Source: Owenia fusiformis (Eukaryota). Taken from it: a DNA stretch of 64,000 bases. Within the stretch, counting starts at the first letter, position 1; the number at the start of each line of letters is the position of its first letter. The DNA is taken from NCBI GenBank assembly GCA_903813345.2, contig CAIIXF020000001.1, forward strand, positions 26,784,001 to 26,848,000, written 5' to 3'. The notes beneath the pieces were generated by a model. The model ran no database searches and was not told where the DNA came from. It saw only the letters and a program-made list of their open reading frames with translations. A program made the position numbers and the translations under genes. This document shows positions 27,401-48,400 of this stretch, in pieces.

Positions 27401-30400
27401 GCCATCAACACAGGCAAAGTCACTATCCAACCAATAAGAGATGACACACTGCACTGCCAAACTATTTCAATGTTCATACCATTCATGTTGAATTACCTAT
27501 TAATTATTGAAGTGAGAGCAATAATAGCCTCTGAAAATCAAATACAGTGCATGGTCTAATACCGTACAGGTACTAAACTTGTGAAGTGTATTCATGATAT
27601 ACCTTCACGTCTCATCAAGGTGGGCCGTTTCCTAATCAGCTCTGTCCCAAAGGTGAGTTTACGCTGAACTGTGGGGAGAACATTACTGTAACAACTAACT
27701 ATCGCATTCCTAGCAGCAGCCCTCTCCCTTGCCGACACATCTGCCTCATTCTGAAAATACAACACATGAGAAATAAAATGCATTGATTTAACATGCCAAA
27801 CTTAAGGAGAGAAGTGTTTTGATTAGAGAATAACAATCAAATTTTTCAGACGTGGTCTCATATCCAACATTATAATTTTCCGAACTAACAAAGTTTGGTA
27901 GGGATATAGTGAAGACCTCCATCTGTCTGTCAGTCCACTAGTCAGTCCATCTGTCCGTTCGGAAGATAACTCGAATACTAGTGGACGGATTTTCTTCATA
28001 TTATTCATATTGGTGAATAGCTGTATACAATAACAAAAAAATTCCAAGATGGCCACCGCTTTAAAAATGGCTGGTTTCGTGAAAATCTTAAGTTTTTCTA
28101 AGATGAGGGAAAGCCCCAGAGTTTAAAGATGACAGACATAATTACCTCTCTTGCTTACCACCTTCGTTCATTCGAATTTTCATCGGCTAGTTATCAAATA
28201 TTACACTTCGATGGGATGTTTTAATTGACATAGGCATATTCCGTACACCTTTCCTTATCTTGATGTGAAATGAGAAGCTATGATATTGGTTAACACGCCA
28301 GAAATGAACATAATATTATTCGAAGCGTATTTCGAAAATTTTGAAACCGCCATTGATGACGTCATTTGTTTGTCGACTTTTGACCAATCAGCGACGATGT
28401 CATCTCAATACAGATTTACATTATAAGCGTATGTCATCTTTAAACCCTGGTGTTTCTCCCCCTCTGAGTTTTTCTTTTTAAACCAAAGTTATAAATATTA
28501 TTGTTTCGAATTTTGGTAGTATATTCACAACATGTTCTATCTATTTCATATATATTCCGAGTTTTTCAACATGACCCCCAGGGGCCATGTATTAGGGGTT
28601 GGGAAAATGGGAATTTGCTTTAATTTTGAGATCTTTCTAAAGTATAGCTTTATTGTACTCAAATGAAAGGCAATTAGAGTACATTGCAAATATTGTATTG
28701 GTTTTGTAATTTTGGCCAAGTAAAATTCAAAATGGCCACCTTATGTGAGATTTTGCAATAATTTTCTGACCCCTTTAAAGTATGGCTATATTATCAAATT
28801 GAAGGAAATTTAGGGTAGATCATTACTTTGGCATTGTCTTTCCGATTTGTGCCTCAGAAAATTCAAAATGGCTGCCAACAGGAATTTGCATTAATTTTGA
28901 GATATTTCTGAGTATTGCTTTATTATACTCAAATGAAAGGCAATTTATAGTAGATTGCAAATACATGTATTGTATCGGTTTTGTAATTTGGGCCTCGTAA
29001 AATTCAAAATGGCTGCCACCTTATGAGGAATTTCGCAATAATTTTCTGATCTATTTTGATATTGTCTTTATTATTTGTGCCTTAAAAACTCTTAAAGATC
29101 TAATAGCAAAGGTTTTGCAAAAATAAATCAATGTAGTATAAAACAAATGTATGTATAATGAAGAAATAAATATATAATGAAAAAAATAGATATGTGTTAC
29201 AGTATTATATTCTATTATATTCACATTAAGTTTAGTTTATCAATATGCATATACTGTAACTGATCTTCATTAGAGATCTTAGGTCAAGGTCACAATGACA
29301 TTATATCTTGTAAACATAACTGAACTGAATGACTCATTAACCATTGGTCTTCTAGAAAGTACTGGAACTATAATCATTAAATCAAGATTGAATCATGTGA
29401 CTTAAGATGTCCAATCAGTGTTGATTTCCAGAAATTGTAACTTCTTGAAACATCTGGACTTTGCCTTTGCACTATATAATGAGAGAGCTGATTTGGGCTG
29501 TTAGCAGAATTTTAAAGTTGATCAAAAGGACATCTTCTTAGCAGAAAATTACAGACACCTACTTTGGGAACATTTATAACATTACAAACATACAACCTAA
29601 GGATTTTATATGGACATATATTACAACACGCACTATATACGGATTATCATATACATTCGTGGATTATCATTAAACATTTGTGGATTATCATCAAACATTA
29701 TTGGATACGAACATTATAGGATTACAACAAACATTATTGGATTATTACAAACATTGGAGAACTATCAACGATTATTGAAACATTCCGTGATCTGGAACAT
29801 TCTCAAGGATCGTCAACGACATTTATCGACATCAAGAATAAGCCGTATCATTGATTGGACATCACTTAAGTATTAAACCTCCTTTATATTATTGTTATAT
29901 TATTTAGTTTTCAAAATATAAATATATTGTTATCATATTTTAATTGCTGTTTTTACTTTCTGTTATTTTCGAACGTAACAGAAATTGGGGGCTCGTCCGG
30001 GAAACAACTATAACAAGCTAAAATACAAATATTTTAAAATTCAAAATCTAAAACTTGCACATTTAATTTGTGAAGACAGCAATTAATCAAAAATGAGTTT
30101 TGAGGTTGAGACATTTTTAGAAGCGCCCTCTTTGGAGGAGTTTGACAAGTTAAAGAAAACTGATCTTCTGGCACTGGCTAAACATGTTGGCTTGGCAGTT
30201 AAAACTTCCTACAGAAAAGGCACAATTAAAAACCTTTTAGTGCAATATTTGGTAGCAGAAGAAATTCTGCCTGAGGAAGCGTTAAAGCTTTCCATGGAGC
30301 CGGCCCAACATGTTGAGCCTGTTGATCCTATTAGGCTCAAAGAGCTTGAATTGAGAGAGAAAGAGTTAGAAATGCAAAATGAAAGAGAGAAAAGAGAAAC

Positions 30401-33400
30401 AAGATTAAGAGAACAAGAAATTCAAAAGGAAAAAGAAATTGAATTAAAACGACTTGAAATAGAAGCCAAATCCAAAACTGATGAACATGCTACTATGCAT
30501 CAACATTTTGAAAATAGGTTTGACGCTTCAAAATTTCTCAAATTTGTTCCTAAATTTCAAGAGAAAAATGTTGATAAATACTTTACACATTTTGAAAAGG
30601 TCGCTCAGAGCCTAGACTGGCCTAAATCTGCATGGCCAGTTATGCTCCAGAGTGTATTCATTGGTAAAGCAAGTGAAATATTTGCCTCTCTCTCAGGAGA
30701 AGTATGCTCTGATTATGACCTAGTTAAAAATGCAATTCTTAAAGCTTATGAACTAGTGCCAGAAGCTTACAGACAAAAATTTAGAAATGCCCACAAACAG
30801 AGTGACCAAACCCATGTTGAGTTTGCTCGAGAGCAAGAGCAGCTTTTTGACAGGTGGCTTGTCTCTAAAGATGTATCTGAAGAGTTTAAAAAGCTCAGAG
30901 AGCTTATGCTAATAGAACAATTTAAAAACTGTGTTCAGTATCACATTAGAACTTACTTAGATGAACACAAGGTAGAAACTTTAAGTCAAGCTGCCACCCT
31001 GTCTGATGATTATGCTCTTACTCATAAGGGTAGTTTTATCAAAGGTAATCCTAACTTTAGAGGTTATCAAGGTAACAAACCTTCATATGACTCTAAATCA
31101 AATCAGTCCTCATCATCAAATACATCAAACAAAGCAAAAGACCAGTCTAATTCATCACAGAATTCTAGCTCAAAATCAGATCAATCAAATTCTTCAGGTC
31201 CAAAATCAAACGTCACCTGTAACTATTGTAAAAAGCCTGGTCATCTTATTTCTGAATGCTATAGGATTAAGAATAGAAGAGAGATGTCTGGTTCTGCTCA
31301 TTCAAATGGTTGTGTTACAGTTCCCATTTCAAGAAAGCCCATTGTTTGGGATTCATATACTCATACTGAGAAATCTACTCATAGTGATATTATGGAGGAT
31401 TATAAGCCTTTCATGTCGGAAGGATCTGTGTCACTGTCAAGTGATGATACCAATTCAAAGCCAGTTAAGATTCTTAGAGACACGGGTGCATCTCAGACCT
31501 TGTTGTTAGAAGGTGTCCTTCCTTTATCTGAGGAGTCATTCACAGGTACCCATATTTTGATGCAAGGCATTGAATTAGGTTTTACTAAAGTTCCCCTCCA
31601 TCGTATTCATATCACATCAGAGTTAGTCAAAGGGCCAGTTATTGTTGGTGTTAGGCCACAACTTCCTGTTGAAGGAGTCGCATTGCTTTTAGGCAATGAT
31701 TTAGCTGGGGGTAAGGTATCGTTAGACCCCATTGTCTCAGATCAGCCTTGTTCTATTGAGGATTCTGTCCAAGAGGACTCTGATATATATCCTGCTTGTG
31801 CTGTTACTAGGGCTATGGCTAAAAGGTTAGCTAATAGCGGGGATTCGTCTGTGGGAGATGACTTTGATAGTGGATTTTTAAGCTCCTTGTTTGATGATGA
31901 ATGTCACTCACCACTTGTTAAAGATGATCCTTATCCTATTTTAAAGACAAATTCTTCATTGAAACAGCCTTCTGTTCAAGCCAAGCAGTCATCTATTAAG
32001 GCAAATTCTTCATTGAAAAAGCCTATTGCCAGAGGGGATTCACCTTCTGAGCAGGATCACTATTTTAATGCGGTTTCGCCCGCTCTTGCTAGTCCTGATG
32101 AAGTTTCATCTTCTTCTGCTAGTGTTCATGAGGTTTCATCCCCTCCTTGTTCTGAGGTTTCATCCTCTATTTCTGATAGTGATTCTTTGAAAAATGATCC
32201 TCATTCTAAACACATGTTAATTTATGAACAAGAGCATGATCCATCACTCATTGATCTTCATAAAAGATGTCTTACTATTGATGAAGCTGACAAGGTCCCT
32301 GTTTGTTTCTACAAAAAGGATGGCATATTAATGCGAAAGTGGAGACCTCCTGAAGCTTCCCCCGAAGACGATTGGGCAATTGTACATCAAATTGTTGTCC
32401 CAAAATCATATCATAAGGAAATCTTGAGTCTAGCTCATGATTCTCCCATGGCAGGTCATTTAGGAGTAACTAAAACATACCATAAAATACTCAATCATTT
32501 CTATTGGCCCAAATTAAAACAAGATGTCCAAGAGTATTGTAGGTCTTGTCATACATGTCAAATGGTAGGGAAACCTAATCAGAAAATTCCAACTGCTCCT
32601 TTACACCCTATACCTGCATTCGATGAACCATTTAGCAAGGTTCTTATTGACTGTGTTGGTCCATTACCAAAAACAAAATCTGGTAATCAATATTTACTCA
32701 CTATTCTTTGTATGGCCACACGGTTTCCAGAAGCGATTCCACTTAGAAATATCAAAGCCAAAAACATAGTGAAATCACTCATCAAATTTTTCACCTTAGT
32801 TGGACTGCCAAAAGATCTTCAGTCTGATCAGGGCTCAAATTTCATGTCAGGCTTATTCCAACAGGTAATGGATACCTTGGGTATCAAACAGTGTAAGTCA
32901 AGTGCCTATCACCCAGAGTCTCAAGGAGCTCTAGAGCGTTACCATCAGACGCTTAAGACCATGATTAGAGCTTTCTGTTTTGAATATGAGAAAGACTGGG
33001 ATGAGGGCATACCATTGCTTCTGTTTGCTACCAGAGAGGCTAAGCAAGAATCTTTAGGGTTCAGTCCATTTGAGCTGGTATTTGGTCATTCTGTGCGTGG
33101 TCCACTTAAATTGCTCAAAGAAAAGTGGCTTTCAGAAACTGAAAAGTTTAATTTGTTGAACTATGTCACTGGGTTTAAAGAGCGCCTATCAAAGGCTTGT
33201 GAAATAGCCAAAGAGAATTTGCTAAATAGCCAAGATAAAATGAAAACTTGGTATGACAGAAAAGTCAAAGAAAGATCATTCCAGCCTGGTGACAAAGTTC
33301 TTATATTACTGCCGCTTCAGACAAATCCGCTACAAGCAAAATTCTATGGTCCTTATGTAGTGGATTCCAAGGTCAATGACCTCAATTATATTGTCAAAAC

Positions 33401-36400
33401 TCCAGATAGGCGCAAAGAAACACAATTGTGTCACATCAATATGATGAAAAGGTACTTTGAGCCAGACAAAGAGCATGGCTCAATTAAACCTGTGGTCACT
33501 TTGGCACCTGTCCTTATAACTGAAACTGATCTACAAGATTCAAATGATATCAATTGTACTGATTTAGACTATGAAGATATCAAAGGTTTGTCCAGGTTAA
33601 AGAACTCTGAAGTATTATCAAATCTAGATCATAAATTGCATCATGTGACAAATGATCAAAAACAGCAAGTCACAGAATTAATTCATGAGTTCACTGATAT
33701 CTTCTCTGATGTACCGACTAAGACATCTATAGCTTATCATGATGTTGAAGTCCAAGATGTAAACCCTATTAAGCAACATGCTTATAGAGTAAATCCATCA
33801 AAATCTGAAGATTTGAGAGCTGAGGTCAATTATATGTTAGAAAATGACATAATTGAAAAGAGCAATAGCCCATGGAGTTCACCTGCTTTCATTGTACCAA
33901 AATCAAATGGTGGACGTAGGCTAGTAGTTAATTATATCAAGGTGAATCGAGTAACAAAGACTGATTCTTATCCCATACCACGAATTGACGACTGTATTGA
34001 CAAAATTGGAACTGCTAAATATGTCAGTAAATTTGATCTCCTCAAAGGATTCCTAGGGGTTCCATTAACTGAAAGAGCAAAACAGGTATCTGCCTTTGTT
34101 ACTCCTGATGGTTTGTACCAATTTAAAGTTATGCCATTTGGTATGAAAAATGCACCTGCCACATTTCAAAGAATGATGAATGGCTTATTAGCAGATCTCA
34201 AAAACACTGGTGTATACATCGATGATGTAATTGTCTATTCTAACACTTTTGATGAACACATGTGTTTGCTGCGTAAGTTGTTTGAAAGAATCTCTCTGGC
34301 CAATTTAACCATCAATTTGGCTAAGAGTGAATTTTGTAAAGCCACAGTTGAATATCTGGGCCATGTGGTAGGTCAAGGACAGGTCAAACCAGTGAGTGCC
34401 AAAGTGGAATCAATTACACAACTCCCAGCTCCTACTAACAAGAAAGAATTAATGAGAAGTCTTGGAATGGCTGGCTTTTATAGGAAGTTTTGTCCAAATT
34501 TCTCTTCAATTGCTCTTCCATTGACCAATTTACTTGGGAAAAACATCAAATATGTGTGGTCTGAGCAATGTCATACAGCCTTTGATAAAATCAAGGCCAT
34601 ACTAAGTGAAGAACCAGTGCTTGTTGCACCTGATTTTAGCAAGCCATTCAAGATTCAAGTAGATGCTTCTGATGTAGGAATGGGAGCTGTTCTATTACAA
34701 GAAAGGGATGGTATTGATCATCCAGTGTGTTATTATTCAAAGAAATTTGATAAACATCAGAAAAACTACTCCACCATAGAAAAGGAATGTCTAGCATTAC
34801 TTCTGTCATTACAACATTTTGAAGTATATGTTAGTGCACCAGTTCATGTGGTTACTGTATTTACTGATCACAATCCGCTGACATTCCTTCATAGAATGAA
34901 GAACAAGAATCGTAGATTGTTGAGGTGGAGTCTGTTATTGTCAGAGTACAATCTTGACATAAGACACATCAAAGGCAAGGATAATTTGATTGCTGACACT
35001 CTTTCAAGAGTGTAATGTCTCTATTTTTAAGAGGTTATTCTATTTATACTGCATTTGCCTAAGGCTATGTGTTGATATAATAAAAAGATTGTACTTAGAG
35101 TGTGATTTGATAATATTATTGTATAATATGTTTTCGGGTTTTACTCAGTCTGTAACTTTATAAATATTATTGTATTTGACTATTGTAAACAAATGTTATG
35201 TAAGTCTCAACCTCATCTTTAAAAAAATGTAACCCTCGCTACACCAGATATTATTGTAAAAGTTTTTCATTGTATTCAAAACTTTTCTTTTAAGGAGGGA
35301 GGTGTTACAGTATTATATTCTATTATATTCACATTAAGTTTAGTTTATCAATATGCATATACTGTAACTGATCTTCATTAGAGATCTTAGGTCAAGGTCA
35401 CAATGACATTATATCTTGTAAACATAACTGAACTGAATGACTCATTAACCATTGGTCTTCTAGAAAGTACTGGAACTATAATCATTAAATCAAGATTGAA
35501 TCATGTGACTTAAGATGTCCAATCAGTGTTGATTTCCAGAAATTGTAACTTCTTGAAACATCTGGACTTTGCCTTTGCACTATATAATGAGAGAGCTGAT
35601 TTGGGCTGTTAGCAGAATTTTAAAGTTGATCAAAAGGACATCTTCTTAGCAGAAAATTACAGACACCTACTTTGGGAACATTTATAACATTACAAACATA
35701 CAACCTAAGGATTTTATATGGACATATATTACAACACGCACTATATACGGATTATCATATACATTCGTGGATTATCATTAAACATTTGTGGATTATCATC
35801 AAACATTATTGGATACGAACATTATAGGATTACAACAAACATTATTGGATTATTACAAACATTGGAGAACTATCAACGATTATTGAAACATTCCGTGATC
35901 TGGAACATTCTCAAGGATCGTCAACGACATTTATCGACATCAAGAATAAGCCGTATCATTGATTGGACATCACTTAAGTATTAAACCTCCTTTATATTAT
36001 TGTTATATTATTTAGTTTTCAAAATATAAATATATTGTTATCATATTTTAATTGCTGTTTTTACTTTCTGTTATTTTCGAACGTAACATATGTTTTTGTA
36101 ATATTGGTATAAACTTAAGATTAAAAGGTGTCACTATCTCCTTCATTTTTCTGATATTTCAACCTCGTCTTGCGAGGCCATTTTGATTTGAAACATCTTG
36201 AATTTGGTGTCAAAATAAAGCTGGTCACGCCCACTTTCAGAGTTATCAATGAATCATTTACTACGACTACTATATTCATTTAGGACGCGTGTAAAGTTAA
36301 CCAATCAGAAAGACAATTGTTCCATATATGGCAGTTCATTAACATATTCAGTGTTTACTACTGCTTTTCGCGTCATGACAACACGAGTAGTAACCAATCA

Positions 36401-39400
36401 AGATGCCGTATTTTATCACATGAGTTCAGAGTGACACGCACGCGACATGTTGTCTGAGGTGATCGCGATGTTGAACAATTTCTTCTCGGAATTTGTCCAG
36501 AGAAATCAGCGATTCTAAATTAAGGTAGGATCTGCCATTTTTTCCAGTACAAGTTATAACTTATCTCTATCGAATCCTAAAGTTTTGGAAGAAGATATGA
36601 AGCGTAGGTTTAAAAACGAAGCGATTAATTTGACGATCTGATTTTGCAATTTGCAATGGCCAATTTACTGCAAGTCCAGTGCATGTATTTGACAAGAGAT
36701 AGCGCCAAGTCTTGTATCTAAATGCTTGTGAAGCCACTCAAAAACAAGATCCATATTTTCTAAATTTGATAACTTTGCAGAAAACCTGTTTTCATAATCT
36801 GTTTTCCGCGTCTAGATTCAAACTGAGTATGATAATAGGATCGCTGGAATCTTCAGTCAATGGCAACGGGTCTTCATTCCAGAACTCACATTTTTAGTTG
36901 ATTCTCCGTCATAGTTCTTGTCTAAAGTCCCCATATCTGCTCTCTTACTGCCATACTTGCACACATTTCCCCTCCTTAAATTGTCTTCATTCAAATTACA
37001 CCCTTTCGCCGATTTATATAGCCATTTCCCAGAACCCGGGAATCAGAATCGCTGATGTTTGCCATATTGAACATATTATATGTACTGTAATATCTGTACA
37101 TTGCCTGCTACGCATAATGGTCACGTGACTAGCGCGATACAGGAAAAATGGGGAATTTCGAAACAACAATTTTTGGGCACTTTTATTGCAAATTTCAGGT
37201 ATTTATAAAGTGTTTGTGGTATAAAATATAATCCACAGACATAAATGAACATCCAAACTACATATTTCATTAAGTTTTGGAGCCTTTTTTTCTCTTAAAT
37301 TAACATCTTTAAATGGTCACCCAAATGCTTTTTTAAAATTGGTAGAAATTCTGATATATCTCTAATGTTTCCAATATTTTTATTTTTTTGTGAGAAATAC
37401 AGATTCTATGTTATAGTGTTCGTTGGGATTTGCTACTCCGTGGAGTTGCAGTTTTCTGGTTTTAATTTCTGAGAGTTTCAAATAAGGTTATCTATAAAAT
37501 AATATTTGAAATTTTTTTCAACTTGGCAGCAACTACTCAAACCAAATACAAGTAACAATTTCTAGCTAAGTATAAAGCAATAAAAATGTCATTATGGTAA
37601 ACATGTTCTTTAAAGATACATCCTTTCTCAAAATAATGTACTTAGATATGTCAGATATGTAGGACAAAATGGCCAAAATAAGACTGAATCGTAAAGGTCT
37701 TATGAACATAGTTGGATTACCATGAGAAAATTCACTTCACCATAATTCAAAGAAATCCTTATTTATATTACTATATTGAAACATTGCAGTCACATTTCAG
37801 TCAAATGGTGCTTTAATGTATCGTATATTGTAAAAACATATAAAAAATGTTGGACAGAATACATCTTTAAGTTCAAAATATCAATTCACAATATAAAGTC
37901 TGTCAGCAAATTATGTGTTATATAATCAAATCACATATAACAAGCAGTGTAGCGGGGGGACATTCCAAAACTACACCTTCAACACCTTTCTAACATGCTA
38001 AGGTAAGGCTATATTATATTCTTGCATTAGTAGCGTGTTTTGGTGGATATTTATTTGTTTTCTTAAAAACTTATCAAAGATTTGCCCGATGACCTTGATG
38101 TTTGACTCCAAAAATGATTTGAAAAATCTTTCAAAGGACACTGAAGGTCAATGAGAGGTCAGATCTGAAACCTGAGGTCAGATATGGTCTTTTGGATATT
38201 TGTAAATGACTAAAATATCTGGACTATTGAAGGAATCTGAGACATACCTGGACTTTGGAGAGGAAATCACAATTTAATTCATTGCAAGAAACAGCCAAGT
38301 ATAAGGCCAAACGTTTAGAAACTTAAAATAAATTTGTTTTGACCCTTGAAGTTGACATATGACCTATATACAATATACTTCTCTGGCAAGTCCTAAGAAT
38401 GCTTCCTAGTAATATAAAAGTTTTAGGAGAACGATGAATGCATCAATACCATATCCATACGTTTCTAAAACGTGTATTCTGTATTAGGTCAAACCTGACA
38501 AAAGTATTATTAGTAATTTCATCCTTATATCAAAACATGATTTCAATACGTAACTTATTCACATATTTATACTTATGAACATATATGTACATATTAGTAC
38601 AAGTAGAATTAAAATTTATGTTGAAAATTCTCAAATTCTCTTATTATGTCTAATTATGATTTCAGACAGTGAGAATGCCTCATGACATGACACAGTCTCA
38701 TGACTCACAATGATTCGTGAGTATCACAATTAATTTCCTCCGATGACAATTCCAGTGAAAGAAGCTCAATTCGGGCCTATTTGACAAGGGCATCAATCAC
38801 AGTCTGCACCATCCAGCTTGATAGGTATGTAGAATAGAGTATATTTTGTCGCATAAGACTAAGGATGTTAACAATATGTAGTTATCCTAACAACTTAAGT
38901 GATGAAAGGAGAGGCAATCAAAATTCAGTGGTTGTCACCAAAGAATATTCCAAGTTGTAAAACTTTTAAGACTGGAGTTATCATATAACTGGAAGTAATG
39001 GCATAATTAAGATCCAATAGAATCCAATATGGCCACCCCAAAAGATCTGATCTCGATCATAAGACATCTGTACATATTTTAAGAATATTAATCAAGTAGT
39101 TAAAGTAAACTTTATCAACAAGAAGAAAGAACAAATATTGAATAAAGTGTCTACTAGAGTTCAAGACGACTCCCCAACTGTTTACTATCTAATCGTAATG
39201 TCATCTTTAAAAAAGTAAATAAGCTAGACAGACAAGTCAAGTATACTGTATATCAAATATTGATACCTATAATATTAGGTGAAAGTCATTCAACAAGGTC
39301 ATGCAAAAACCTCTCATTTATTACTTTTCTATGCTTCTCAATGAAACTTTCACATAATATAGGGAAAATATTTATCTAATGAGACCTAAAATAAGTTAAT

Positions 39401-42400
39401 GTTTTATGATTGGTCAAAATATAGCAGCAACATCATTTGGTCATGTGGGGCAATATGAAATGGTATCCTGGAAGCTTTTAAATATAAAATGTGTTTTATA
39501 AAAGTGTGTAGATTAGAGCAACTAATAAATACATGAACCTGAATTTACCATATACGAGGGGTGATCAATAAGTAATGGACGCTTTTTTACACAGATGCTT
39601 TTTATAGACCAATCCCTTCCATTTTCTCACCAGTGATACATCATTCAATTATCTATCAACTCTGAAGATTTGAAGACAAAATATATAAAACATGTTGATA
39701 TATCCTTATTTCCGTGAAGGAGGTACAGGTTCCCCGGGACCGACATTTACGTCACATATTCTGAAGCTGTTTTAGCTTGTTTAACATGCAATGCAGTTGA
39801 ATGCAGGCTGAACAAAACAAACCATTATGGTCATGAATTACCCCCATTTTGTTTTGCCATAGTTGATTTAGATTATTTTATCATCACTATGTGGTATTCA
39901 TGCCACATTCATTCCACAGGGCCCTCTAAATAGGTTCCATCAAGTGCTACATGTACACAATTCCTCATCCTCTCAACTCAAGATTGTGAGACAAGGCTGA
40001 ATCCATTCTCTGACATAGTAGCAAGACGCAGTTGCACGGGTTGTTTTATTTCATCAATGTCAATAATCCTGCGTCCTTTCTCTATAGAAATAAGTAGTAT
40101 AGAAATAAACAAGTCACATGTGAGCAGATCTGGACAATATGGTACATCGGCCAAGGGCTCAATTTTAAGGCCCAGAGATATTGTTTTCTGAACATTTTGA
40201 GATCTGTCGGCAGGTGCATTGTCCATATGGAGTAGGGTGTTCCCTTCTCTCACCACCCCTTTCTTCCACAATGCTTTCTCAAATTGACCTGCAAACCCCT
40301 TCCATACAACACTCTGACATCACAATACTTTCTGTTTATGTGTTACCAGTCAGCAAGAAATTTCAAACAACACAACACTTGTTGCATATAAAAAGTTCAA
40401 ATCTAACTGAAATTTACCAAACTGGCTAAAAACTGAATATGTGACGTAAATGTCGGTCCCGGGGTACCTGTACCTCCTTCACGGAAATAAGGATATATCA
40501 ATATGTATTATATGTTTTGTCTTCAAATCTTCAGAATTGATAGATAATTGAATGATGTATCACTGGTAGGAAAATCAAAGGGATTGGTCTATAAAAGGTA
40601 TCTGTGTAAAAAAGCGTCCATTACTTATTGATCACCCCTCGTAGTTACAGTAAAACCTGTCTAAGCGGAACACCTTTGTAACTTCTAAAAAAAGTGTTCC
40701 ACTTGGGAGGTGTTCCAATCATAGAGGTTCATTTAACATTAACTAATTTAGTGAAAAGTCGTCTACTAGTGGGTGTACTACAACTTCTACGTGTTCCACT
40801 TTACAGGTTTCATTGTTATTGTACAATAATTTTTGTACATCACTTTGTATATATTTTTTTTACTCTGTGAGTTTCAATGAGAAACATGGAATGAAAAATC
40901 AAGAAAATGAGAGCATTTTTGCATGAAATTCATCAATATCATTGTGATCTCAAAAAGTACTTAATCGTTTAAACGATTCTTTATTAACGTATCATTTACA
41001 GGACCAACAGAAACACCATGGAAGACAAACAATTGCCCGAGGTCTATGTAAGAGCACTAAAAGCTTGTCGAGGAAAGTTAGTTAAAGATTTAGAGGTTGA
41101 TGATATAATTGAAATTCTGTATGAGGAAGAAGTAATTGGATCAGATGACAAAGAAATCATCTCAAGTGAAAAATTGAGGACTGAGAAATGTAGATATCTG
41201 TTGAACATTTTAGAGTCTAAAACTGTATTTGGTTTTAATTGTTTTGTCGACTCATTAAAAGCATATCATGAGCATTTGGCCGATGAAATCGAATCACAGT
41301 TATGTGATCAAACAGTTTATCTAACTAGATCCAACATAAATATTGCCTATAGACTTGCTTGTAAAAAGATTCACGAAAGATCAAGCACCACCAAAGACTC
41401 ATTGAAAGAAATATGGCAGTTAGCAAATAAGCTAATCAATCTAGAAAGATTGGACGAGGGCAAGGAAACCAAAACCACCAGATTTTCTTATGAAGATGTC
41501 TCATTGTCTGGAGTCCACATCAAAGCTCTCACATCATGTCAAGATTCCCTAGTGAAATCTTTGAATGTTCGTTCCATGGCAGACATATGGTACCAAGAAA
41601 ATGTCATAACCAAGGAAATGAAGGAAGATATCTTATCAGAACAGACCAACACTCGACAATGTACAAAATTCTTGGAACTATTGAAAATGCGATCAACATA
41701 TGCATTCAACAAATTTGTTAGCACTCTAAAAGATACCAATGATACCAATAAGACAGTGGCAATTGAGCTTGAGCTGTGTTTATGGGAGTACAACTTAATT
41801 CAAACAAAGGACAACTTGGCACTGGCTAACTATCTGGTTGATCAAAACAAAAAGGTTAGATCATTGACTGACTTTATGGCCATTAAGATCAACATAGAAA
41901 AGCTCATGGAGCAGTGTAACATTCAAGATTCTCAGCAACTGAGAGAAAAACTGAAACTACCAAAAATACCTGAATTTGAGAGAGAGGAGGTGGTTTTAAA
42001 ACGCCACACTTTCCCAATGCAATCTACAGGTAATTTCACTCCAATGGACCAAACTTTTCAACCCATGCCACGTGACTTATGGTATAAACTTCTCCAAGAA
42101 ATACAAGAAGCACAACTAAAAAGGAGAAATGGGAAAGCTGACAGCAATGATAACCCCTCTTCAATGAAGTTAAACAAAGATGATGTGGAATGACAAACAG
42201 GAAAACCTGATAAATCCCCAGTCCAGCTTAAGAGCAAACCTCCAATACCACCTAAACCCCTAAAACCTACTAAAACAGAGGAAAGAGAGTCTGAGAAAAT
42301 ATCTCCAATGATGATGGACGAGGAGCAAGAGAAACAACTAAAAGCACAAGTAAAAATGAGAAATAAAAATACTGACAGCAAAGTCTTGGTCCCTAAGATA

Positions 42401-45400
42401 ATCCAGCTGGAGACAAAAGCTGAAGAGCCAAAAAAGCAACTGGAAGTTATGGAAATGCAAGAAGGTATAGATGAAGTTGATACTGCTGCTTCTTCAAAAC
42501 AACAAAACAAAAATGATCCAGCAATTTATTCAACTGTTCACAGTCAAATGAAACAAAGAGTAGGCCTGACTGAGCTTCTTTCAGTAGCTCATCCAACATG
42601 TCCGAGTTTGGAAAAAGGACCTGAAGAAGACTTGACACAAGAAAGCAAAAATGAGCTAGAAAAAGAAAAGCACCAGCTTAAATCTCATAACAGCCTCAAT
42701 CTAGCTGAAGTGAAAAAATGTAATGCAGTACAACGATCGCACAGTGATTCTTGTTTACATGTTGAAGAAGTCAAACTCATGAAGACAAAAATGAAGGCAG
42801 CGAAGATTTTAGAAAGAAAGGGTAGACTTAAGAATACTTGCCAGCTTATACAGCGCATAATAGTAAAGGATCTTTCAGATGTGAAAACAATAGAATACTT
42901 GGAAAACAAAGATATATTAATAATGGGTAGAAGACATAAGAAATGGTTATCAGGGAGTACTGCAATAGCTGTGATCTTTGATCAGAATTGGGACTTAAAG
43001 ACAAAGCTGGTAGAAAAACAAGTAAAAGATGTAGCATCCAATAAGGATGTTATTGTTGTATCATGTGAAGATGAAGGATCTAACTTGCTGAAGATATTTG
43101 ACATCACTGGACAACTCAAGCGAAGCCTACCAACACCTTTATATGCAGCAAACTGTATAGTATTCAATCATTTAAATGAGCTGGTGATAAAAGCGGAAGG
43201 TCACAATAACAAAGCAATTTATCACATGGATATGTCATTGATGAGGATTAGAAGCGCTACACCAACTGGTATGTTTACATCTCAAGTGGGCACAATAGCT
43301 GTCACTCCAAACAATGATATACTAATTGCGGATTACTGGGATAACTCTGTGAAGTGCAGGGATAGAAATGGCAAGCTTCTTTATGAGTACAATGGAGAGC
43401 AAAACCAAGATCTGTTTAAACCCAGTAGTGTCTGTACTGATGATATGGGACATATACTAATAGCCGACATGGACAATAACAGAATCCATATACTGTCCCC
43501 AGAACATCAATTCATCAAGTTAATATCTGTGGATGCGTTGGAAGTTCCAAATACAATTACTGTGAACCATGAAGGGCACTTAGTTGTTGGAACAAGTCCC
43601 ACTTCAGGACCAGCTGAAGTTTTCATTGTGAAATACAAAGAGTAGAATCACACAAAATATGATACAGTAATATATAGAGCTGGCATCGAATAGGATTTTA
43701 ATGTCGACATGTAGGAGCTCTTGATCGACAACGATATCGACATTGTCGGGTCCAATGATATTCGAAAAATGAAAAAAAATTTGAAGAAAATTCGTCTGAA
43801 TTTTAGATTTTCTAGGCTTGTAATTAGCAATACGATGCACAATAGTCATCCTCAGTTGTATGTCTTATATTTAACTTACAGGTAAACCATGTTTAAGTAT
43901 CAGACTTTGACGAAAAAGCAATAAATAGACATAAAACTACGATTTCTGTTGTTATTTCCGGGCAGCCATTGAAAATAAATCTCAAGGGTAAATCTCGAGG
44001 GGCACGAGACCTAATTCGAAACAAAAAGAAAATTTGAAAATGTAGGCGGTAAAACTTCACTAAAATACACCATACAGCAGGTAGTAACAAAGATTTTAAT
44101 TCTTAGGGAAATAGCTTATTATGTTGTGAGTTCAAACTGTCGATCAAGAGGCGTTGTGTCGACATGGGTGTCGCAGAGAGCATTCGACTGACAATCGACC
44201 ATTCCGACATTTGATGCCAGCTCTAGTAATATACATGATCAACAGTGAGAACGCGATCATCTCCAAATGCCTATGATATGCTTTAAACACAAATATATCA
44301 ATCTGGGAGAATACAATATGTTAAGTGCTTTATTATAACCTAGCAAAAACTATTATATAAAAACTATTATATTTTTTTATAAAATAATTAATGCTTTGTA
44401 AAAATGTCTACTCAGTACTACATGTATTTAGTATTTCCTATGCGTGCTATGTGAAGAATTTGCAAAATCACTAACAAGTAACAACATACATGTACATATA
44501 GTTCCTTTCTATGCAGATGTTTTGTTTTTATGACGTGATGTTATAAATGTTGTAGGGTTATTACCAAACAAGGTAAATGTAAGTGTTGTGAATGTGTTAT
44601 TAAAGCAACTATTGTAGCAATGATTCTTATTCCATGTTTTTATTTTCTAGACATGTTATAGAGGTGCTTTCTCTTTTTACGAAACATGTAACTAGAGTTT
44701 GACTCTCAAATGTGACTAATTTAAGAAGAACCTTCTCAATGGTGGATTTTAATGTGCAGATGGAGTGATTTAAGTGTGAAACAGTTATATTCTCAAATAG
44801 CATCAATGGTTTTGAATTTAGAGAAATGTTTAATTTCATCATTCACATTTCATTGATTATCATTTTGAGTGTAGCATAGAATGACACATCAATATAAGAA
44901 ACTGGTTACCATAGTAACCTAGAATCAAGGGCCTCAGGGCAAATATGACACATCAAGGTGTAAACCCCACTAGACATATTTAAAACACAAATGAGAAAAT
45001 ATTCTAAATTCTTGTTAAATTAATTGTTATGTGTTGTTTGTTAATCAACATCTGTACATATACCATGTCTGTATTAAATACAAAGTTATTGGATTAAGAT
45101 TGAATACACAGATAAAAAGAATTTATTGGAAAATTGAATATAATATGCAAAAGAATGAGTTTTACCATTTTTATTATATTATTGTTATCTATGTATAGGT
45201 ATGCTTATGAAGACTTTGGGTAATAAGGATTTTCATTTTAGTTTTGCAAATTTATTTTGATGGAAATTCACAATTTAAAGAATATTATAAACCTAAGATT
45301 AAAGAAAATTTATCTATCCTCATTATCCATAGTCCCTCGCTGCAAAAAATATAAAATTGAACCTTGTAAACTAAAATTTATCATTTGGACGATCAAGCTA

Positions 45401-48400
45401 AAAAGCATCTTCATTATGTCATCATTGAAATTCTATTCAGAATAACATAATTGGTACCAATAAAATTCAAATTGAATGTAAAAAAATGTTTGTGACTGTA
45501 GTATTTATAATTTACAATGTGTACTATCACAGGCTGGTATCGAAAGATTTGTCCGCTGTGACGGAGCATGCTATTTTTCATAAAAACTCTAAGAATGCTT
45601 CACGATTTATTTTTTAACTCATATGTTTCGTTATATCAAAGATAATTACTTACTCCATGCAATGGATATATCATTTGCGTGTAACCTTCACTTCTGTTTG
45701 AAGTCCAATAACGCTAGGAGTAAAATCTATTGAAAACGGCGCCAGAGTATCAAACTCTAAAATGTACCATTTATTTTTTAACTTTTTAATGGCATGATAT
45801 AGTGACACGATAATATTAACATATGTTTTCAGCATAACTCTGAATGTATTAATGAGATATTAATGCATTGGGTCTTTTTAATTATTTTATAAAAAATAAT
45901 ATTAATATTTTTTGTCCGCTGTGACGGAGCATTTTCACAGTTCATATTTGCACCTGCTCCGTCACAGCGGACAAAAAAATTAAACATTATTTTTTATAAA
46001 AGAATTAAAAAGACCAAATACATCAACATCTCATTTATACCTTCATAGTTATACTGAAACCATGTGTAAATATTATCGTGTCACTTTATCGTGCCATTAG
46101 AAAGTTAAACAAGAAATGGTACATTTTGAAGTATGATACTCCGGTGCCATTTTCAATAGCTTTTCTTCCCAGCGTAATTGGACTTCAATCAGAAGTGAAA
46201 GTTACCCGCAAATGATATATCCATTGCATGGAGTAAGTAATTTTGTATGGTATAACGAAACATATGAGTTAAAAAATAAATCGTGAAGTATTCTTAATGT
46301 TTTTATGAAAAATAGCATGCTCCGTCACAGCGGACACATATTTCGATACCAGCCTGTGACTATCAAAAATCAAAAACATAATATTACTTATTGTCCTTGG
46401 CTCAATAAAGAATAAGGATCAAATAGGGTTAGTTTATAACATCAATGATTAGGTTTTTGACAGCTCTGGCCATGAAATTGAGAAACTTGATCAATTGACT
46501 GCAACTCAATGACAATTTTATTCAAAAGACTTTTGATCTCTAACTTTGCGAATATAATATTTTTGACCCAAGGCACTTAATTATAAATACCAGTACTAAA
46601 TGAATTGTTGTATTAACCTCTGAACATGACACACACCCAAAACCAAATTTTGACCATCTACTTCCACCAAGTGGCACATGTCACTTAGATTGTAGTTAAA
46701 CACAAGGTATTAACAGGCAAAATGTCACCACCTGCCATTAGTTACAAGTGCCAAACTCTGAATGCCAAACACTAGCTTATCCACAAAAGAGTTAGAGACT
46801 ACAATATGTCACCACTTGTGGTGGTGACATAAAAATGGTGTCTAAGACAATATAACACAACTGGCCAGAAGAATTATCTCCCGACCTTTGGTCATATACC
46901 CCGGGTGTTAGAGTCTAGTTTATTAGCAAAGTAACTATTGTAAAGGGTAATGATCACATACACACTGCCATAGAATTGAAACAATTACTCTTTGATTATA
47001 TCTTAATTGACTTACCAGACCAGTTTGTTTGACTCTTTCATTAAGGCGTATTGCATCTACATATCTAGACCTCTGTAAGTAATGCATTATGAGGATCTCT
47101 TTAGAATTGGGCTCTTTAGTCTCCTGTAGGTACCCTATCAACTGGCGCTCCTCCACATCATTCATTGGAAGCTGAAGTAGACTATCTATCATCTTGGCTG
47201 AAATTCAAGAAATTTCGTTTGATTGTTTAATTCTACCAATACAACTATTGCTCTTGTTTGCCCTCAATTCATCTTTACAATAAATAATCCTCGACTATAA
47301 AAAACACCTCAAGAAGACAAAGGTCATTTTGGTGTGTCTCACTGAACAAAATGAATCTTTTGACAAAGATGAGATATGACATTGAATAAATGCAGATATA
47401 ATCCAATGAAGACATTACTATCTATATGTTGCCCCAAGAAATTACTCATTTAACTACCAATCATTTAACACCAAAAAGGAAAATTTTTATTTGATGGTGT
47501 ATCGATGACATTGTGTTTAGACACAAATGTTTACCACAGCAGGCAATTAATGACAGTTTCCATGTAATTTGTTTGGCTTATACTTTCCAATTATCTTGTC
47601 TGTTGATTTGCCTGTTATTGATGAGTCACATCTCATGTGAACAGTCAACCAATGTTGTTTATACTATGTTTTATACTTACTTTGTTGACATCCTAGGAAG
47701 AAATGTGAAAGAAGGTCATCCAAGTTACCCTCATCTCTACACAAACGCTGATACTCAAATGCCTCAGATGTCAAACTATAACACATCAAACAGTGGAAAT
47801 AATGCATAAAATAGTAATAGACATTCACTTAAGGATCAAACAAGAGAAATGTTTATGCTTTAAAATACATTTTAAACGGATATTTTTTTTTTCATATGCT
47901 ATACATTGGTTCAGCTAATTTGCTAAGTTAAATCAATTTGTCTCATTCTTTCACCAAAATCCGTCTCATACATATATTTTATACAGGTATTCACGAGAAC
48001 AAGTTTTACTGAATTTAGATATATAATTTCAAAACATTTACAATTCAACAAACACTAACCCATTGGCCAGTAGAACAGTCAACTTGAGCTTCACAAGTTC
48101 AGGGGTTTCCATTGGTGGTTTCCGTATACGAATGAACCGCAGGGCCTTCTGGTGGTGACCTTGATAGAGGAATGCCTTGATGACACGAACCTGTTGCCAT
48201 AGTGATATGTTCACATCAATCATAGGATCCAGCAGAGAAGTCAGGGCTTGCTAAAATTGTAATAAATTTTGGTTATATTATCATGCAAACATATACTCAT
48301 AAATAATTTGAAGTCATTATCCAAGCCTATGGTCACTTCACTATCTATTTGCCAACCCAGAAATGTGTTAATGATTGGGATTCTTACGGGGCTAGAGGCA

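What the first reader, a model, noticed from the sequence alone, without database searches (positions are those of the whole stretch)
41018..43645. Nested CARD-CARD-NHL gene in one frame split by a single TGA-C: candidate readthrough-switched immune receptor
Seen: the two listed ORFs (41018-42193 and 42308-43645) share a frame. The 38 codons between them are open (QTGKPDKSPVQLKSKPPIPPKPLKP...), so one TGA at 42191-42193, in context GAA TGA CAA ACA, is the only lesion in about 875 codons. It falls in the linker between the tandem CARD-like module and the NHL propeller. Known: UGA-C is the leakiest stop context and CAA is the first half of the CARYYA readthrough motif. Tandem CARDs are signalling modules (RIG-I/MDA5, NOD2), and NHL propellers are ligand- or RNA-binding modules usually seen on TRIM proteins. 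Inference: the locus could make a CARD-only adaptor and, by readthrough, a CARD-CARD-NHL sensor, an architecture I do not recognise. Alternatives: a recent CGA>TGA nonsense allele, an assembly error, or splicing around the stop.
Basis: partly seen in the sequence, partly recalled or inferred. Interest (0 to 1): 0.85.

Follow-up and report, generated by a model that had tools for sequence, protein, structure and literature searches.

The report
CARD-CARD-NHL gene with premature stop
An invertebrate gene that joins two death-fold signalling domains to a TRIM2-like propeller is cut in its flexible linker by one TGA, most likely a young truncating allele rather than a programmed readthrough switch, which is not excluded.

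Summary
Positions 41018-43645 (+) form one frame of 875 sense codons with a single internal TGA at 42191-42193 (GAA TGA CAA ACA), against 80 and 85 stops in the other forward frames.

Both halves are real domains. There are two CARDs (52.4 and 36.8 bits, cut-off 23.9; the model resembles Apaf-1 CARD) and an intact six-bladed NHL propeller (pLDDT 91.4; TRIM2 NHL, TM 0.75-0.78).

The architecture has precedent. Six uncharacterised proteins of the annelid Owenia fusiformis are CARD-linker-NHL in one uninterrupted chain and align colinearly. I found no paper on them.

The TGA lies in the disordered, hypervariable linker. A short-read contig reproduces it exactly, so it is not an assembly slip.

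Nothing positive supports programmed readthrough:
- no SECIS match;
- no downstream RNA structure (z -0.19);
- no CARYYA or CUAG motif, only UGA-C and the looser CARNBA, which follows 11 of 873 codons in this gene.

The state of the site in other individuals and in RNA could not be seen. Best reading: a young nonsense allele that gives a tandem-CARD-only protein (about 0.55). Functional readthrough is about 0.1.

The parts
39553..40643 (.). Context: decayed mariner-like DNA transposon, 1091 bp with 209-nt terminal inverted repeats and TA at both ends, about 375 bp upstream of the ATG. It is present in the window and absent from the contig of individual X2.
   Evidence: The inverted repeat arms lie at 39553-39761 and 40435-40643 and are 95% complementary. 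The sequence was read. X2 record 10 joins 39552 to 40643, and depth over the element is very high. That the internal ORF remnant is transposase-like is my recollection, not a test.
40996..41021 (+). Acceptor-like ttacag followed by the start codon in the context ACCATGG. This suggests an upstream 5'-UTR exon (inferred).
   Evidence: Sequence read directly. There is no RNA evidence.
41018..42190 (+). ORF1, 391 codons: CARD1, helical extension, CARD2, helical extension, and the first part of the linker.
   Evidence: The internal duplication is 32.7% identical over 156 aa, E 1.35e-14.
41051..41299 (+). CARD 1 (residues 12-94)
   Evidence: PF00619, E 5.3e-14, 52.4 bits. The AF2 six-helix bundle has pLDDT above 90. 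The top fold hits are Apaf-1 CARD, TMt 0.86-0.90, rmsd 1.4 A.
41525..41740 (+). CARD 2 (residues 170-241). This is the copy that aligns with the single CARD of the Owenia proteins.
   Evidence: PF00619, E 4e-9, 36.8 bits. Alignment A1. The AF2 blocks have pLDDT 78-91.
41918..42841 (+). Linker of about 300 codons: low-complexity, K/E/Q/P-rich, with no Pfam family. It holds the TGA.
   Evidence: No family at E <= 0.01. It aligns only with the gappy linker columns of the relatives. Individual X2 differs here by 32 letters and 18 gap letters in 520 nt.
42191..42193 (+). The in-frame TGA, in the context GAA TGA CAA ACA
   Evidence: X1 contig record 4 (42004-42476) has 0 differences.
42194..42307 (+). 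38 open codons between the TGA and the first downstream ATG. They are proline-rich, like the linker of Owenia protein P0004.
42842..43642 (+). Six-bladed NHL beta-propeller (residues 609-875)
   Evidence: AF2 pLDDT 91.4, pTM 0.88, 24 strands. TRIM2 NHL 7b2r by Foldseek: E 3.1e-14, TM 0.75/0.78. TRIM2 NHL by phmmer: E 2.8e-23. NHL PF01436: E 3.5e-10.
43643..43645 (+). Terminal TAG of the long frame
43920..43925 (+). First AATAAA after the TAG, a possible poly(A) signal (inferred)

Best explanation
The locus is a single-copy gene whose whole coding sequence lies in one exon. It belongs to a small spiralian family of CARD-linker-NHL-propeller proteins and carries an extra duplicated CARD unit.

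In the haplotype of this assembly, a point mutation has put a TGA into the disordered linker. It is evolutionarily young and is probably a segregating or recently fixed allele. From this allele the ribosome mainly makes a 391-residue tandem-CARD protein without the propeller.

There is no coding exon junction downstream, so the mRNA should escape junction-dependent decay (inferred). The truncated product may therefore accumulate and act as a CARD-only decoy or adaptor, or the allele may simply be null.

The intact family protein is inferred to work as a cytosolic sensor-adaptor. The TRIM2-like propeller would bind a ligand (RNA or protein). The CARDs would nucleate death-fold assemblies with caspase-type or adaptor CARDs.

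Shown: the anatomy, the domains, the family and the presence of the TGA in reads. Inferred: the age of the stop, the fate of the mRNA and the function.
For: (1) The fused chain is the family norm.
- I scanned 20 of the 150 listed phmmer hits (4899 at E <= 1e-3) with Pfam. Five are CARD+NHL in one chain (P0002, P0003, P0004, P0014, P0032). Two are CARD-only. Thirteen have no CARD.
- All six are named Owenia fusiformis (five, P0158).
- The alignment is colinear from CARD2 to the C-terminal VKY motif, with the TGA in the gappy linker.

(2) The downstream half shows no decay.
- 483 codons are open (P = 2e-14).
- The propeller folds at pLDDT 91.4.
- It keeps 10 of 14 columns invariant in the five Owenia proteins and 37 of 52 columns conserved in at least 4 of 5. 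CARD2, upstream of the stop, keeps 10 of 14 and 22 of 37.
- By my own rough estimate, about 0.045 stop-creating changes plus 0.1 frameshifts per substitution over 1449 nt means no lesion is expected only below about 1.4% neutral divergence. That is less than the 2-6% seen between haplotypes here.

(3) The stop is real in reads. X1 contig record 4 covers 42004-42476 with 0 differences at depth 54.9.

(4) The linker is hypervariable in the population. X2 differs by 32 letters and 18 gap letters in 520 nt. X4 and X6 barely cover that bin (depths 0.39 and 1.87). A private change there is unsurprising.

(5) The same haplotype carries a polymorphic transposon insertion 375 bp upstream, which is absent in X2.

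(6) No readthrough apparatus was found:
- no Rfam hit at E <= 1 in 40500-46000 except a chance MIR841 match (30.4 bits against a gathering score of 200);
- the 120 nt after the stop fold no better than shuffles (z -0.19; 84 of 200 shuffles fold at least as well);
- CARYYA and CUAG are not met.
Against: - The context is not neutral. UGA followed by C is a weak terminator, and CAAACA fits CARNBA (PMC4132726, passages read). CARNBA follows only 11 of 873 in-frame codons of this gene, and C at +4 follows 154 of 873.
- In X1 the single contig accounts for nearly all depth of its bin (54.9 of 61.7). That individual may therefore be homozygous for the TGA haplotype (a weak inference from contigs).
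- Among the pieces listed for X2, X4 and X6, 0 of 7 inside ORF2 have gap letters, against 9 of 11 non-coding pieces (Fisher p = 0.002). The downstream frame has therefore been kept in the population. That fits a young allele, but it equally fits continued translation.
- Substitution divergence in ORF2 (3.60%) is no lower than in non-coding DNA (3.16%, p = 0.31). Ordinary purifying selection on the propeller is therefore not shown.
- The state of 42191 in X2 was not displayed (the table was cut), so polymorphism of the stop is unproven.
- Annotated proteins cannot contain in-frame stops. The uninterrupted Owenia models therefore do not exclude stop-bearing members that were annotated as halves. 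P0098 (tandem CARD, partial), P0013 and P0046 (propeller only) could be such cases.
Confidence: 0.55

Rival explanations
1. Programmed (selected) stop-codon readthrough. The UGA-CAA-ACA context lets a fraction of ribosomes insert an amino acid. One mRNA then gives a tandem-CARD-only protein and a full CARD-CARD-NHL sensor in a set ratio.
For: - The context is UGA-C and fits CARNBA, which follows 11 of 873 codons by chance (motif from PMC4132726, passages read).
- The 483-codon downstream frame and the propeller are intact.
- No indels are seen in 7 of 7 ORF2 pieces from three other individuals.
- X1 is possibly homozygous for the TGA haplotype.
Against: - There is no downstream structure (z -0.19) and no SECIS.
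- CARYYA fails at position 4, and all six of its positions mattered in the assay read. CUAG is absent.
- The motif match is post hoc among several known motifs and was defined in yeast and plant viruses, not in spiralians.
- The six full-length relatives need no stop.
- A readthrough extension of 483 codons that carries a whole domain would be exceptional among cellular genes. This rests on my knowledge, not on a test.
- Conservation of the stop is untested.
Confidence: 0.1
2. The stop is removed from some or all mRNAs by splicing of an in-frame, coding 'exitron' within the linker. A full CARD-CARD-NHL protein with a shorter linker would then still be made.
For: - In-frame GT..AG pairs span the stop. 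The best are donor cag|GTAATT at 42030 with acceptor CTTCTTTCAG at 42584 (555 nt) or with CTAAAACAG at 42278 (249 nt).
- Removing 185 codons would leave a linker about as long as those of the Owenia proteins.
Against: - 1141 in-frame GT..AG pairs exist, so good-looking ones are expected by chance. My score is crude.
- The candidate intron is itself open in the gene frame: 1 stop, against 14 and 21 in the other frames. It is therefore coding sequence, not an ordinary intron.
- No RNA run could be read.
Confidence: 0.1
3. There are two working cistrons. After the split, ORF2 is expressed on its own from ATG 42308, by its own promoter or by reinitiation, as an NHL-only protein beside a tandem-CARD-only protein.
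For: - NHL-only proteins of 265-391 aa are common among the relatives. Examples are the Atlas clusters of mollusc NHL proteins (score 0.95-0.96) and Owenia P0046.
- CARD-only multi-domain proteins also exist (P0098, P0137).
- Automatic gene calls list the halves as separate proteins (P0001, P0151).
- The ORF2 frame is kept free of indels.
Against: - ORF2 would start with about 220 residues of disordered linker.
- The shared frame and the 38 open codons point to a very recent single ORF (about 1/3 x 0.084 by chance).
- No promoter or transcript evidence exists, and automatic calls are not evidence of expression.
Confidence: 0.1
4. An assembly or sequencing error created the TGA.
For: None specific. 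It is a single-base event.
Against: A separately assembled contig of run X1 covers 42004-42476 with 0 differences at depth 54.9. That run may come from the same individual. This excludes a consensus error but not a private allele.
Confidence: 0.03
5. The TGA encodes selenocysteine, or the organism reads TGA as sense.
For: Only that the codon is TGA.
Against: - No SECIS or other Rfam match at E <= 1 in 40500-46000, apart from a chance miRNA hit.
- The site lies in a disordered linker with no aligned Cys in the relatives.
- TGA is otherwise absent from this 875-codon frame and from the 1642-codon retrotransposon frame of the window. It is therefore not an ordinary sense codon here.
Confidence: 0.01

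Closest known systems
Uncharacterised CARD-NHL proteins of the annelid Owenia fusiformis (P0002 = A0A8S4P4N9, P0003, P0004, P0014, P0032, P0158)
   Same: - N-terminal CARD with a helical extension, a disordered linker, and a C-terminal propeller of about 270 aa ending in V-K-Y.
- Colinear alignment, with 25-31% identity overall and 33-38% in the propeller.
   Different: - They have one CARD, not two, and mostly shorter linkers.
- They are annotated as uninterrupted chains.
- None has been studied. No paper was found.
TRIM-NHL proteins (TRIM2, TRIM3, TRIM71/LIN-41, Brat, Thin, Mei-P26)
   Same: The propeller is their NHL domain by sequence (TRIM2 E 2.8e-23) and by fold (7b2r, TM 0.75/0.78, E 3.1e-14).
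   Different: No RING, B-box or coiled-coil family was found anywhere in the protein. CARDs stand in their place.
Tandem-CARD and CARD-propeller sensors (RIG-I/MDA5, NOD2, Apaf-1/CED-4)
   Same: - A death-fold signalling module is joined to a ligand-binding module.
- The CARD model superposes on Apaf-1 CARD (TMt 0.86-0.90, rmsd 1.4 A) and also hits the MDA5 tandem CARDs, CED-3/CED-4, caspase-9 and CARD9.
- The best sequence hit is the CED-3 CARD, E 5.9e-4.
   Different: There is no helicase, NACHT/NB-ARC, LRR or WD40 domain. Nothing but a linker lies between the CARDs and the propeller, so no nucleotide-driven switch is present.
Primate CARD-only proteins (CARD16/COP, CARD17/INCA, CARD18/ICEBERG)
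   Same: They are CARD-only decoys derived from duplicates of a longer CARD protein, caspase-1 (PMC3775265, passages read). This is what the truncated allele here could become.
   Different: - They are separate, fixed genes with shown inhibitory function. Here the downstream half is still intact and no function is shown.
- That they were truncated by premature stops is my recollection, not in the passages I read.
Cellular UGA readthrough genes (OPRL1, OPRK1, AQP4, MAPK10, MDH1)
   Same: UGA followed by C (PMC4132726, passages read).
   Different: - Those genes have a conserved UGA-CUAG and short extensions (13 to about 30 residues in the passages read).
- Here the context is CAAACA, the extension is 483 codons, and conservation is untested.

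Membership tests
CARD (death-fold superfamily, Pfam PF00619) | Profile match above the curated cut-off | tested here: met
   CARD1 scores 52.4 bits and CARD2 36.8 bits, each scanned alone, against a cut-off of 23.9.
CARD (death-fold superfamily, Pfam PF00619) | Six-helix bundle fold that superposes on solved CARDs | tested here: met
   The AF2 model has two helical bundles. CARD1 has pLDDT above 90 and CARD2 78-91. All of the top Foldseek rows are CARDs or designs based on them, with Apaf-1 at TMt 0.86-0.90 and rmsd 1.4 A. The Foldseek E-values are weak (best 3.9e-3), as expected for a 90-residue domain inside a 301-residue model.
NHL-repeat six-bladed beta-propeller (PF01436) | NHL repeat profile match and a closed six-bladed propeller | tested here: met
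   NHL scores 39.9 bits against a cut-off of 20. The model has 24 strands, pLDDT 91.4 and pTM 0.88. TRIM2, TRIM3, Thin, Brat and TRIM71 NHL domains are the top fold hits.
CARD-linker-NHL family (Owenia fusiformis proteins) | Colinear CARD, linker and propeller in one reading frame, with end-to-end homology | tested here: met
   Alignments A1 and A4. phmmer E-values are 4.7e-55 to 1.3e-47 for P0002-P0004. The window gene meets this only if the TGA is read through, and it has an extra CARD.
TRIM-NHL E3 ligases | RING, B-box and coiled-coil N-terminal to the NHL domain | tested here: not met
   No RING, B-box or TRIM coiled-coil family at E <= 1 or E <= 0.01.
RIG-I-like receptors / NOD-like receptors / Apaf-1 | Helicase or NACHT/NB-ARC nucleotide-binding module between the CARD(s) and the sensor domain | tested here: not met
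   No such family in any part of the protein. The AAA_18 row (E 0.32, 11.9 bits against 29.4) is noise.
Programmed stop-codon readthrough genes | Stop codon and its 3' context conserved in orthologues, with a coding signature downstream | not testable with these tools
   - No genome is held.
- No relative is closer than 38%.
- No alleles are in the protein collection or in metagenomes.
- The one read-laying run did not display the site for X2.
Programmed stop-codon readthrough genes | Known stimulatory 3' motif (CUAG, CARYYA or CARNBA) or a downstream RNA structure | tested here: inconclusive
   UGA-C and CARNBA are met. CARYYA and CUAG are not met. The downstream fold has z -0.19.
Selenoprotein genes | SECIS element in the 3' UTR | tested here: not met
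   No SECIS family at E <= 1 in 40500-46000, both strands.

The most novel reading that the evidence does not exclude
CARD-NHL proteins are an undescribed class of spiralian cytosolic sensors: a TRIM2-like ligand- or RNA-binding propeller wired directly to death-fold signalling, with no nucleotide-binding switch. At this locus, a leaky UGA-CAAACA in the linker sets the ratio between a tandem-CARD-only regulator and the full sensor, so one mRNA encodes both the receptor and its own decoy.
Probability: 0.08. Interest if true: 0.75.

Novelty: new variant of a known kind. Interest (0 to 1): 0.35.

Why it matters
If the plain reading is right, this is an ordinary event: a premature stop in a fast-evolving, lineage-specific immune-type gene of a highly polymorphic invertebrate. 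Its main value is as a warning that the two automatic gene calls (P0001, P0151) are halves of one gene.

The by-product is more useful. CARD fused directly to a TRIM2-like NHL propeller is a real family that recurs in two species. It is uncharacterised, and my four literature searches found no description of it. It is a minimal sensor-adaptor design that could be tested for ligand binding and CARD filament formation.

If the stop proved to be conserved and leaky, it would be a rare cellular case of readthrough adding a whole folded domain. It would also be a new way to couple a receptor with its CARD-only antagonist.

Tried and rejected
- **Own genome:** none is held, so I made no paralogue or orthologue search at the DNA level.
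- **The search for homologous proteins, full length:** no hit. The word index was swamped by the low-complexity linker.
- **The search for homologous proteins, residues 330-500, 'shorter':** only the self fragment P0001, so no allele information.
- **The search for homologous proteins, profile A4:** only Owenia proteins, one B-box-NHL protein and one unrelated long protein.
- **Metagenome scan with ORF2:** 126 pattern matches, none a relative.
- **Sequencing runs:** no RNA holder is listed.
- **Runs X4 and X6:** these are labelled 'RNA?'. They cover unique intergenic stretches and repeats in the same proportions as the DNA runs. I treat them as DNA, and they say nothing on expression or splicing. 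No joint across the stop was listed. Contigs of DNA could not show one.
- **My single read-laying run:** I laid 12 kb that included high-copy repeats. These filled the difference tables (433 rows not shown), so the letter at 42191 in X2 was not displayed.
- **Cluster of ORF2:** its two other members, P0152 and P0153 (55-57 aa), are unrelated by eye. This is a clustering artefact.
- **Atlas search with ORF1:** only CARD clusters at 0.85, a lead only.
- **Earlier findings of this scan:** nothing found in four look-ups.
- **Literature on a CARD-NHL architecture:** searches found nothing. The first was badly worded (word-start matches to 'cardio' and 'NHLBI').
- **Ordinary intron, selenocysteine, alternative code, assembly error:** each rejected for the reasons given under rival explanations.
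- **Five population differences shown inside ORF2** (43123, 43130/31, 43138, 43522): read against by hand, these are two synonymous and two non-synonymous codon changes. That is too few for dN/dS.

Full report
**Observation.** On the + strand, ORF1 (41018-42193) and ORF2 (42308-43645) share a frame. The 38 codons between them are open. The only internal stop among 875 sense codons is TGA at 42191-42193, in the context GAA TGA CAA ACA. The frame ends with TAG at 43643-43645.

The gene frame has 1 stop, against 80 and 85 in the other two forward frames and 57, 28 and 45 in the reverse frames. The window-wide stop frequency is 0.063 per codon. The chance of 483 open codons is therefore 2e-14, of 391 open codons 8e-12, and of the 38 bridging codons 0.084. 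After a 1642-codon retrotransposon frame, these are the two longest open frames of the window. The start codon sits in ACCATGG, just after an acceptor-like ttacag. An AATAAA follows the TAG by about 275 nt. Both of these are read from the sequence, not shown by RNA.

**Domains.** Each CARD passes Pfam's cut-off when scanned alone:
- residues 12-94: 52.4 bits, E 5.3e-14;
- residues 170-241: 36.8 bits, E 4e-9 (cut-off 23.9).

The two CARD-plus-helix units are an internal duplication, 32.7% identical over 156 residues, E 1.35e-14. An AlphaFold2 model of residues 1-301 (8-row alignment, mean pLDDT 79.2) gives two helical bundles separated by a disordered stretch. Its Foldseek hits are CARDs throughout: Apaf-1 CARD with TMt 0.86-0.90 and rmsd 1.4 A, then MDA5 CARDs, CARD9, CED-3/CED-4, caspase-9 and CARMA1. 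The E-values are weak (best 3.9e-3). By sequence the nearest solved CARD is that of CED-3, E 5.9e-4.

Residues 589-875 (20-row alignment) fold as a closed propeller of 24 strands, with pLDDT 91.4 and pTM 0.88. The nearest structures are the NHL domains of TRIM2 (E 3.1e-14, TM 0.75/0.78), TRIM3, Thin, Mei-P26, Brat and TRIM71. By sequence TRIM2 NHL scores E 2.8e-23, and Pfam NHL scores 39.9 bits against a cut-off of 20.

The roughly 300 residues between CARD2 and the propeller match no family. They are K/E/Q/P-rich, and the TGA lies in them. No RING, B-box, coiled-coil, helicase or NACHT family was found.

**Relatives.** A phmmer search of 1.84 billion representatives gave 4899 hits at E <= 1e-3, mostly bacterial NHL proteins. 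150 were listed. The best hit is a self fragment, P0001 (residues 81-391, ending at the TGA), from a 62.2-Mb NCBI contig. ORF2 is held separately as P0151, and the ESM Atlas also holds it from its ATG. Automatic pipelines have thus called the halves as two genes.

I scanned 20 of the 150 listed hits with Pfam:
- Five carry CARD and NHL in one uninterrupted chain: P0002, P0003, P0004, P0014 and P0032 (427-593 aa).
- Two are CARD-only: P0098 with two CARDs and P0137 with three.
- Thirteen have no CARD.

A profile search added a sixth CARD+NHL protein, P0158. All six, and also P0098, P0013 and P0046, are named Owenia fusiformis (P0158, the others). NHL-only look-alikes come mainly from molluscs.

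In the alignment, the Owenia CARD pairs with CARD2 of the window protein. The propellers align to the last residues (V-K-Y). The TGA falls in the gappy linker columns, next to a proline-rich stretch that resembles the linker of P0004.

The CARD-linker-NHL architecture is therefore real and recurs in a second species. The window gene is a member with an extra CARD. Four literature searches (the first was poorly worded) found no description of such proteins. Supplementary files were not consulted.

**Is the stop real, and how old is it?** A separately assembled contig of DNA run X1 covers 42004-42476 with 0 differences, at depth 54.9 in a bin of mean depth 61.7. The TGA is therefore not a consensus error. 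X1 may be the source individual, and it may be homozygous there (a weak inference from contigs).

Another individual, X2, has one contig over 42000-42519 that differs by 32 letters and 18 gap letters. X4 and X6 hardly cover that bin (0.39 and 1.87). The linker is therefore hypervariable.

Downstream of the stop nothing has decayed. The propeller keeps 10 of 14 columns invariant in the five Owenia proteins and 37 of 52 columns conserved in at least four. CARD2, upstream of the stop, keeps 10 of 14 and 22 of 37.

I then compared the pieces listed for X2, X4 and X6 (counted from table 8). X1 was left out because it is identical to the window. The 2 pieces that straddle coding and non-coding sequence were set aside.

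| Region | Pieces with gap letters | Substitution divergence |
|---|---|---|
| ORF2 | 0 of 7 | 3.60% |
| ORF1 | 1 of 4 | 1.92% |
| Non-coding | 9 of 11 | 3.16% |

- Gap letters, ORF2 against non-coding: Fisher p = 0.002.
- Substitutions, ORF2 against non-coding: p = 0.31.

The downstream frame has therefore been preserved among haplotypes. Ordinary purifying selection on its residues is not shown. Indels may also be intrinsically commoner in AT-rich non-coding DNA.

By my rough estimate, an untranslated 1449-nt frame would be expected to stay clean only below about 1.4% neutral divergence. That is less than the distance between haplotypes here. So either the stop is young or the downstream half is still translated.

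**Tests of the readthrough idea.**
- UGA followed by C is a weak terminator.
- CAAACA fails CARYYA at position 4. It fits the looser yeast consensus CARNBA (PMC4132726, passages read; there all six CARYYA positions mattered).
- In this gene, CARNBA follows 11 of 873 codons in frame, CARYYA 4, CTAG 4, and C at +4 follows 154. The match is uncommon, but it was found after the fact among several candidate motifs.
- The 120 nt after the stop fold no better than shuffles (z -0.19; 84 of 200 shuffles fold at least as well).
- Rfam finds no SECIS or other element at E <= 1 in 40500-46000. The one row is a chance MIR841 match, 30.4 bits against a gathering score of 200.
- TGA is not a sense codon elsewhere in this frame or in the 1642-codon retrotransposon frame.

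**Splicing around the stop.** There are 1141 in-frame GT..AG pairs that span the stop without creating a new one. The best is cag|GTAATT at 42030 paired with CTTCTTTCAG at 42584 (555 nt) or with CTAAAACAG at 42278 (249 nt). That stretch has 1 stop in the gene frame, against 14 and 21 in the other frames. It is therefore coding sequence, and only an 'exitron'-type event would fit. No RNA could be read.

**Context.** The gene is single-copy by depth (about 57-73 in X1, like other unique stretches). It is flanked by very high-copy repeats at 39208-40811, 43619-44420 and 45223-47227.

The repeat just upstream is a 1091-bp element with 209-nt terminal inverted repeats (95% complementary) and TA at both ends. 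X2's contig joins 39552 directly to 40643, so the insertion is polymorphic. The reference haplotype thus carries both a transposon near the gene's 5' end and the premature stop.

**Verdict.** Its claim of an unrecognised architecture is softened, because the family exists although it has not been studied.

The readthrough switch has no positive support beyond a weak-terminator context. The most economical explanation is a young nonsense allele of a CARD-(CARD)-NHL sensor-adaptor gene. It would give mainly a 391-residue tandem-CARD protein, possibly a decoy in the manner of primate CARD-only proteins (PMC3775265, passages read).

My odds:
- young nonsense allele: about 0.55;
- selected readthrough: 0.1;
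- exitron splicing: 0.1;
- separate expression of ORF2: 0.1;
- assembly error: 0.03;
- selenocysteine or an alternative code: 0.01.

The function of the family (ligand binding by the propeller, CARD-driven assembly) is inferred from its domains only.

Noticed in passing
window 39553-40643: A 1091-bp DNA transposon with 209-nt terminal inverted repeats (95% complementary) and TA at both ends, at very high copy number. It is present in the window but precisely absent from the contig of individual X2, which joins 39552 to 40643. It is therefore an insertion polymorphism about 375 bp upstream of the CARD-NHL start codon. Its internal ORF remnant (39978-40271, - strand) looks like the C-terminal part of a mariner transposase. 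That is my recollection and was not tested.
   Followed up: partly
window 30087-35015 (+): A 1642-codon open frame of an LTR-type retrotransposon. The integrase domains (H2C2 at residues 771-827, rve at 847-943) lie before the reverse transcriptase (1270-1427) and RNase H (1491-1621). The gag part matches the SCAN domain (E 5.8e-14). This is an unusual pol order for a gypsy-like RT.
   Followed up: partly
window 5072-5596 and 6496-6681 (+): Two exons of an aquaporin gene. The first matches MIP PF00230, E 1.2e-31, profile positions 2-107 of 222. The second holds the NPAR box.
   Followed up: partly
window 20414-25569 (-): A run of long open frames on the minus strand (363, 373, 171 and 143 codons). 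They contain tandem 'TPSRDVTPEpQNTRSLRSGRR'-like repeats rich in S, R, T and P. The three of the four that I scanned (363, 373 and 171 codons) have no Pfam family at E <= 0.001. They are probably exons of one large disordered protein.
   Followed up: no
window 43619-44420 and 45223-47227: Further very high-copy repeats, with depth 1e4-5e5 against about 60 for unique DNA. They lie just downstream of the gene, and the putative poly(A) signal at 43920 lies inside the first one. Many variable joints occur around 46746-46815.
   Followed up: no
protein P0137 (ENA contig, 19.9 kb): A 315-residue protein made of three nearly identical CARD units (PF00619, E 7.9e-51, 3 stretches). It is a CARD-only multi-domain relative from an unnamed source.
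   Followed up: no
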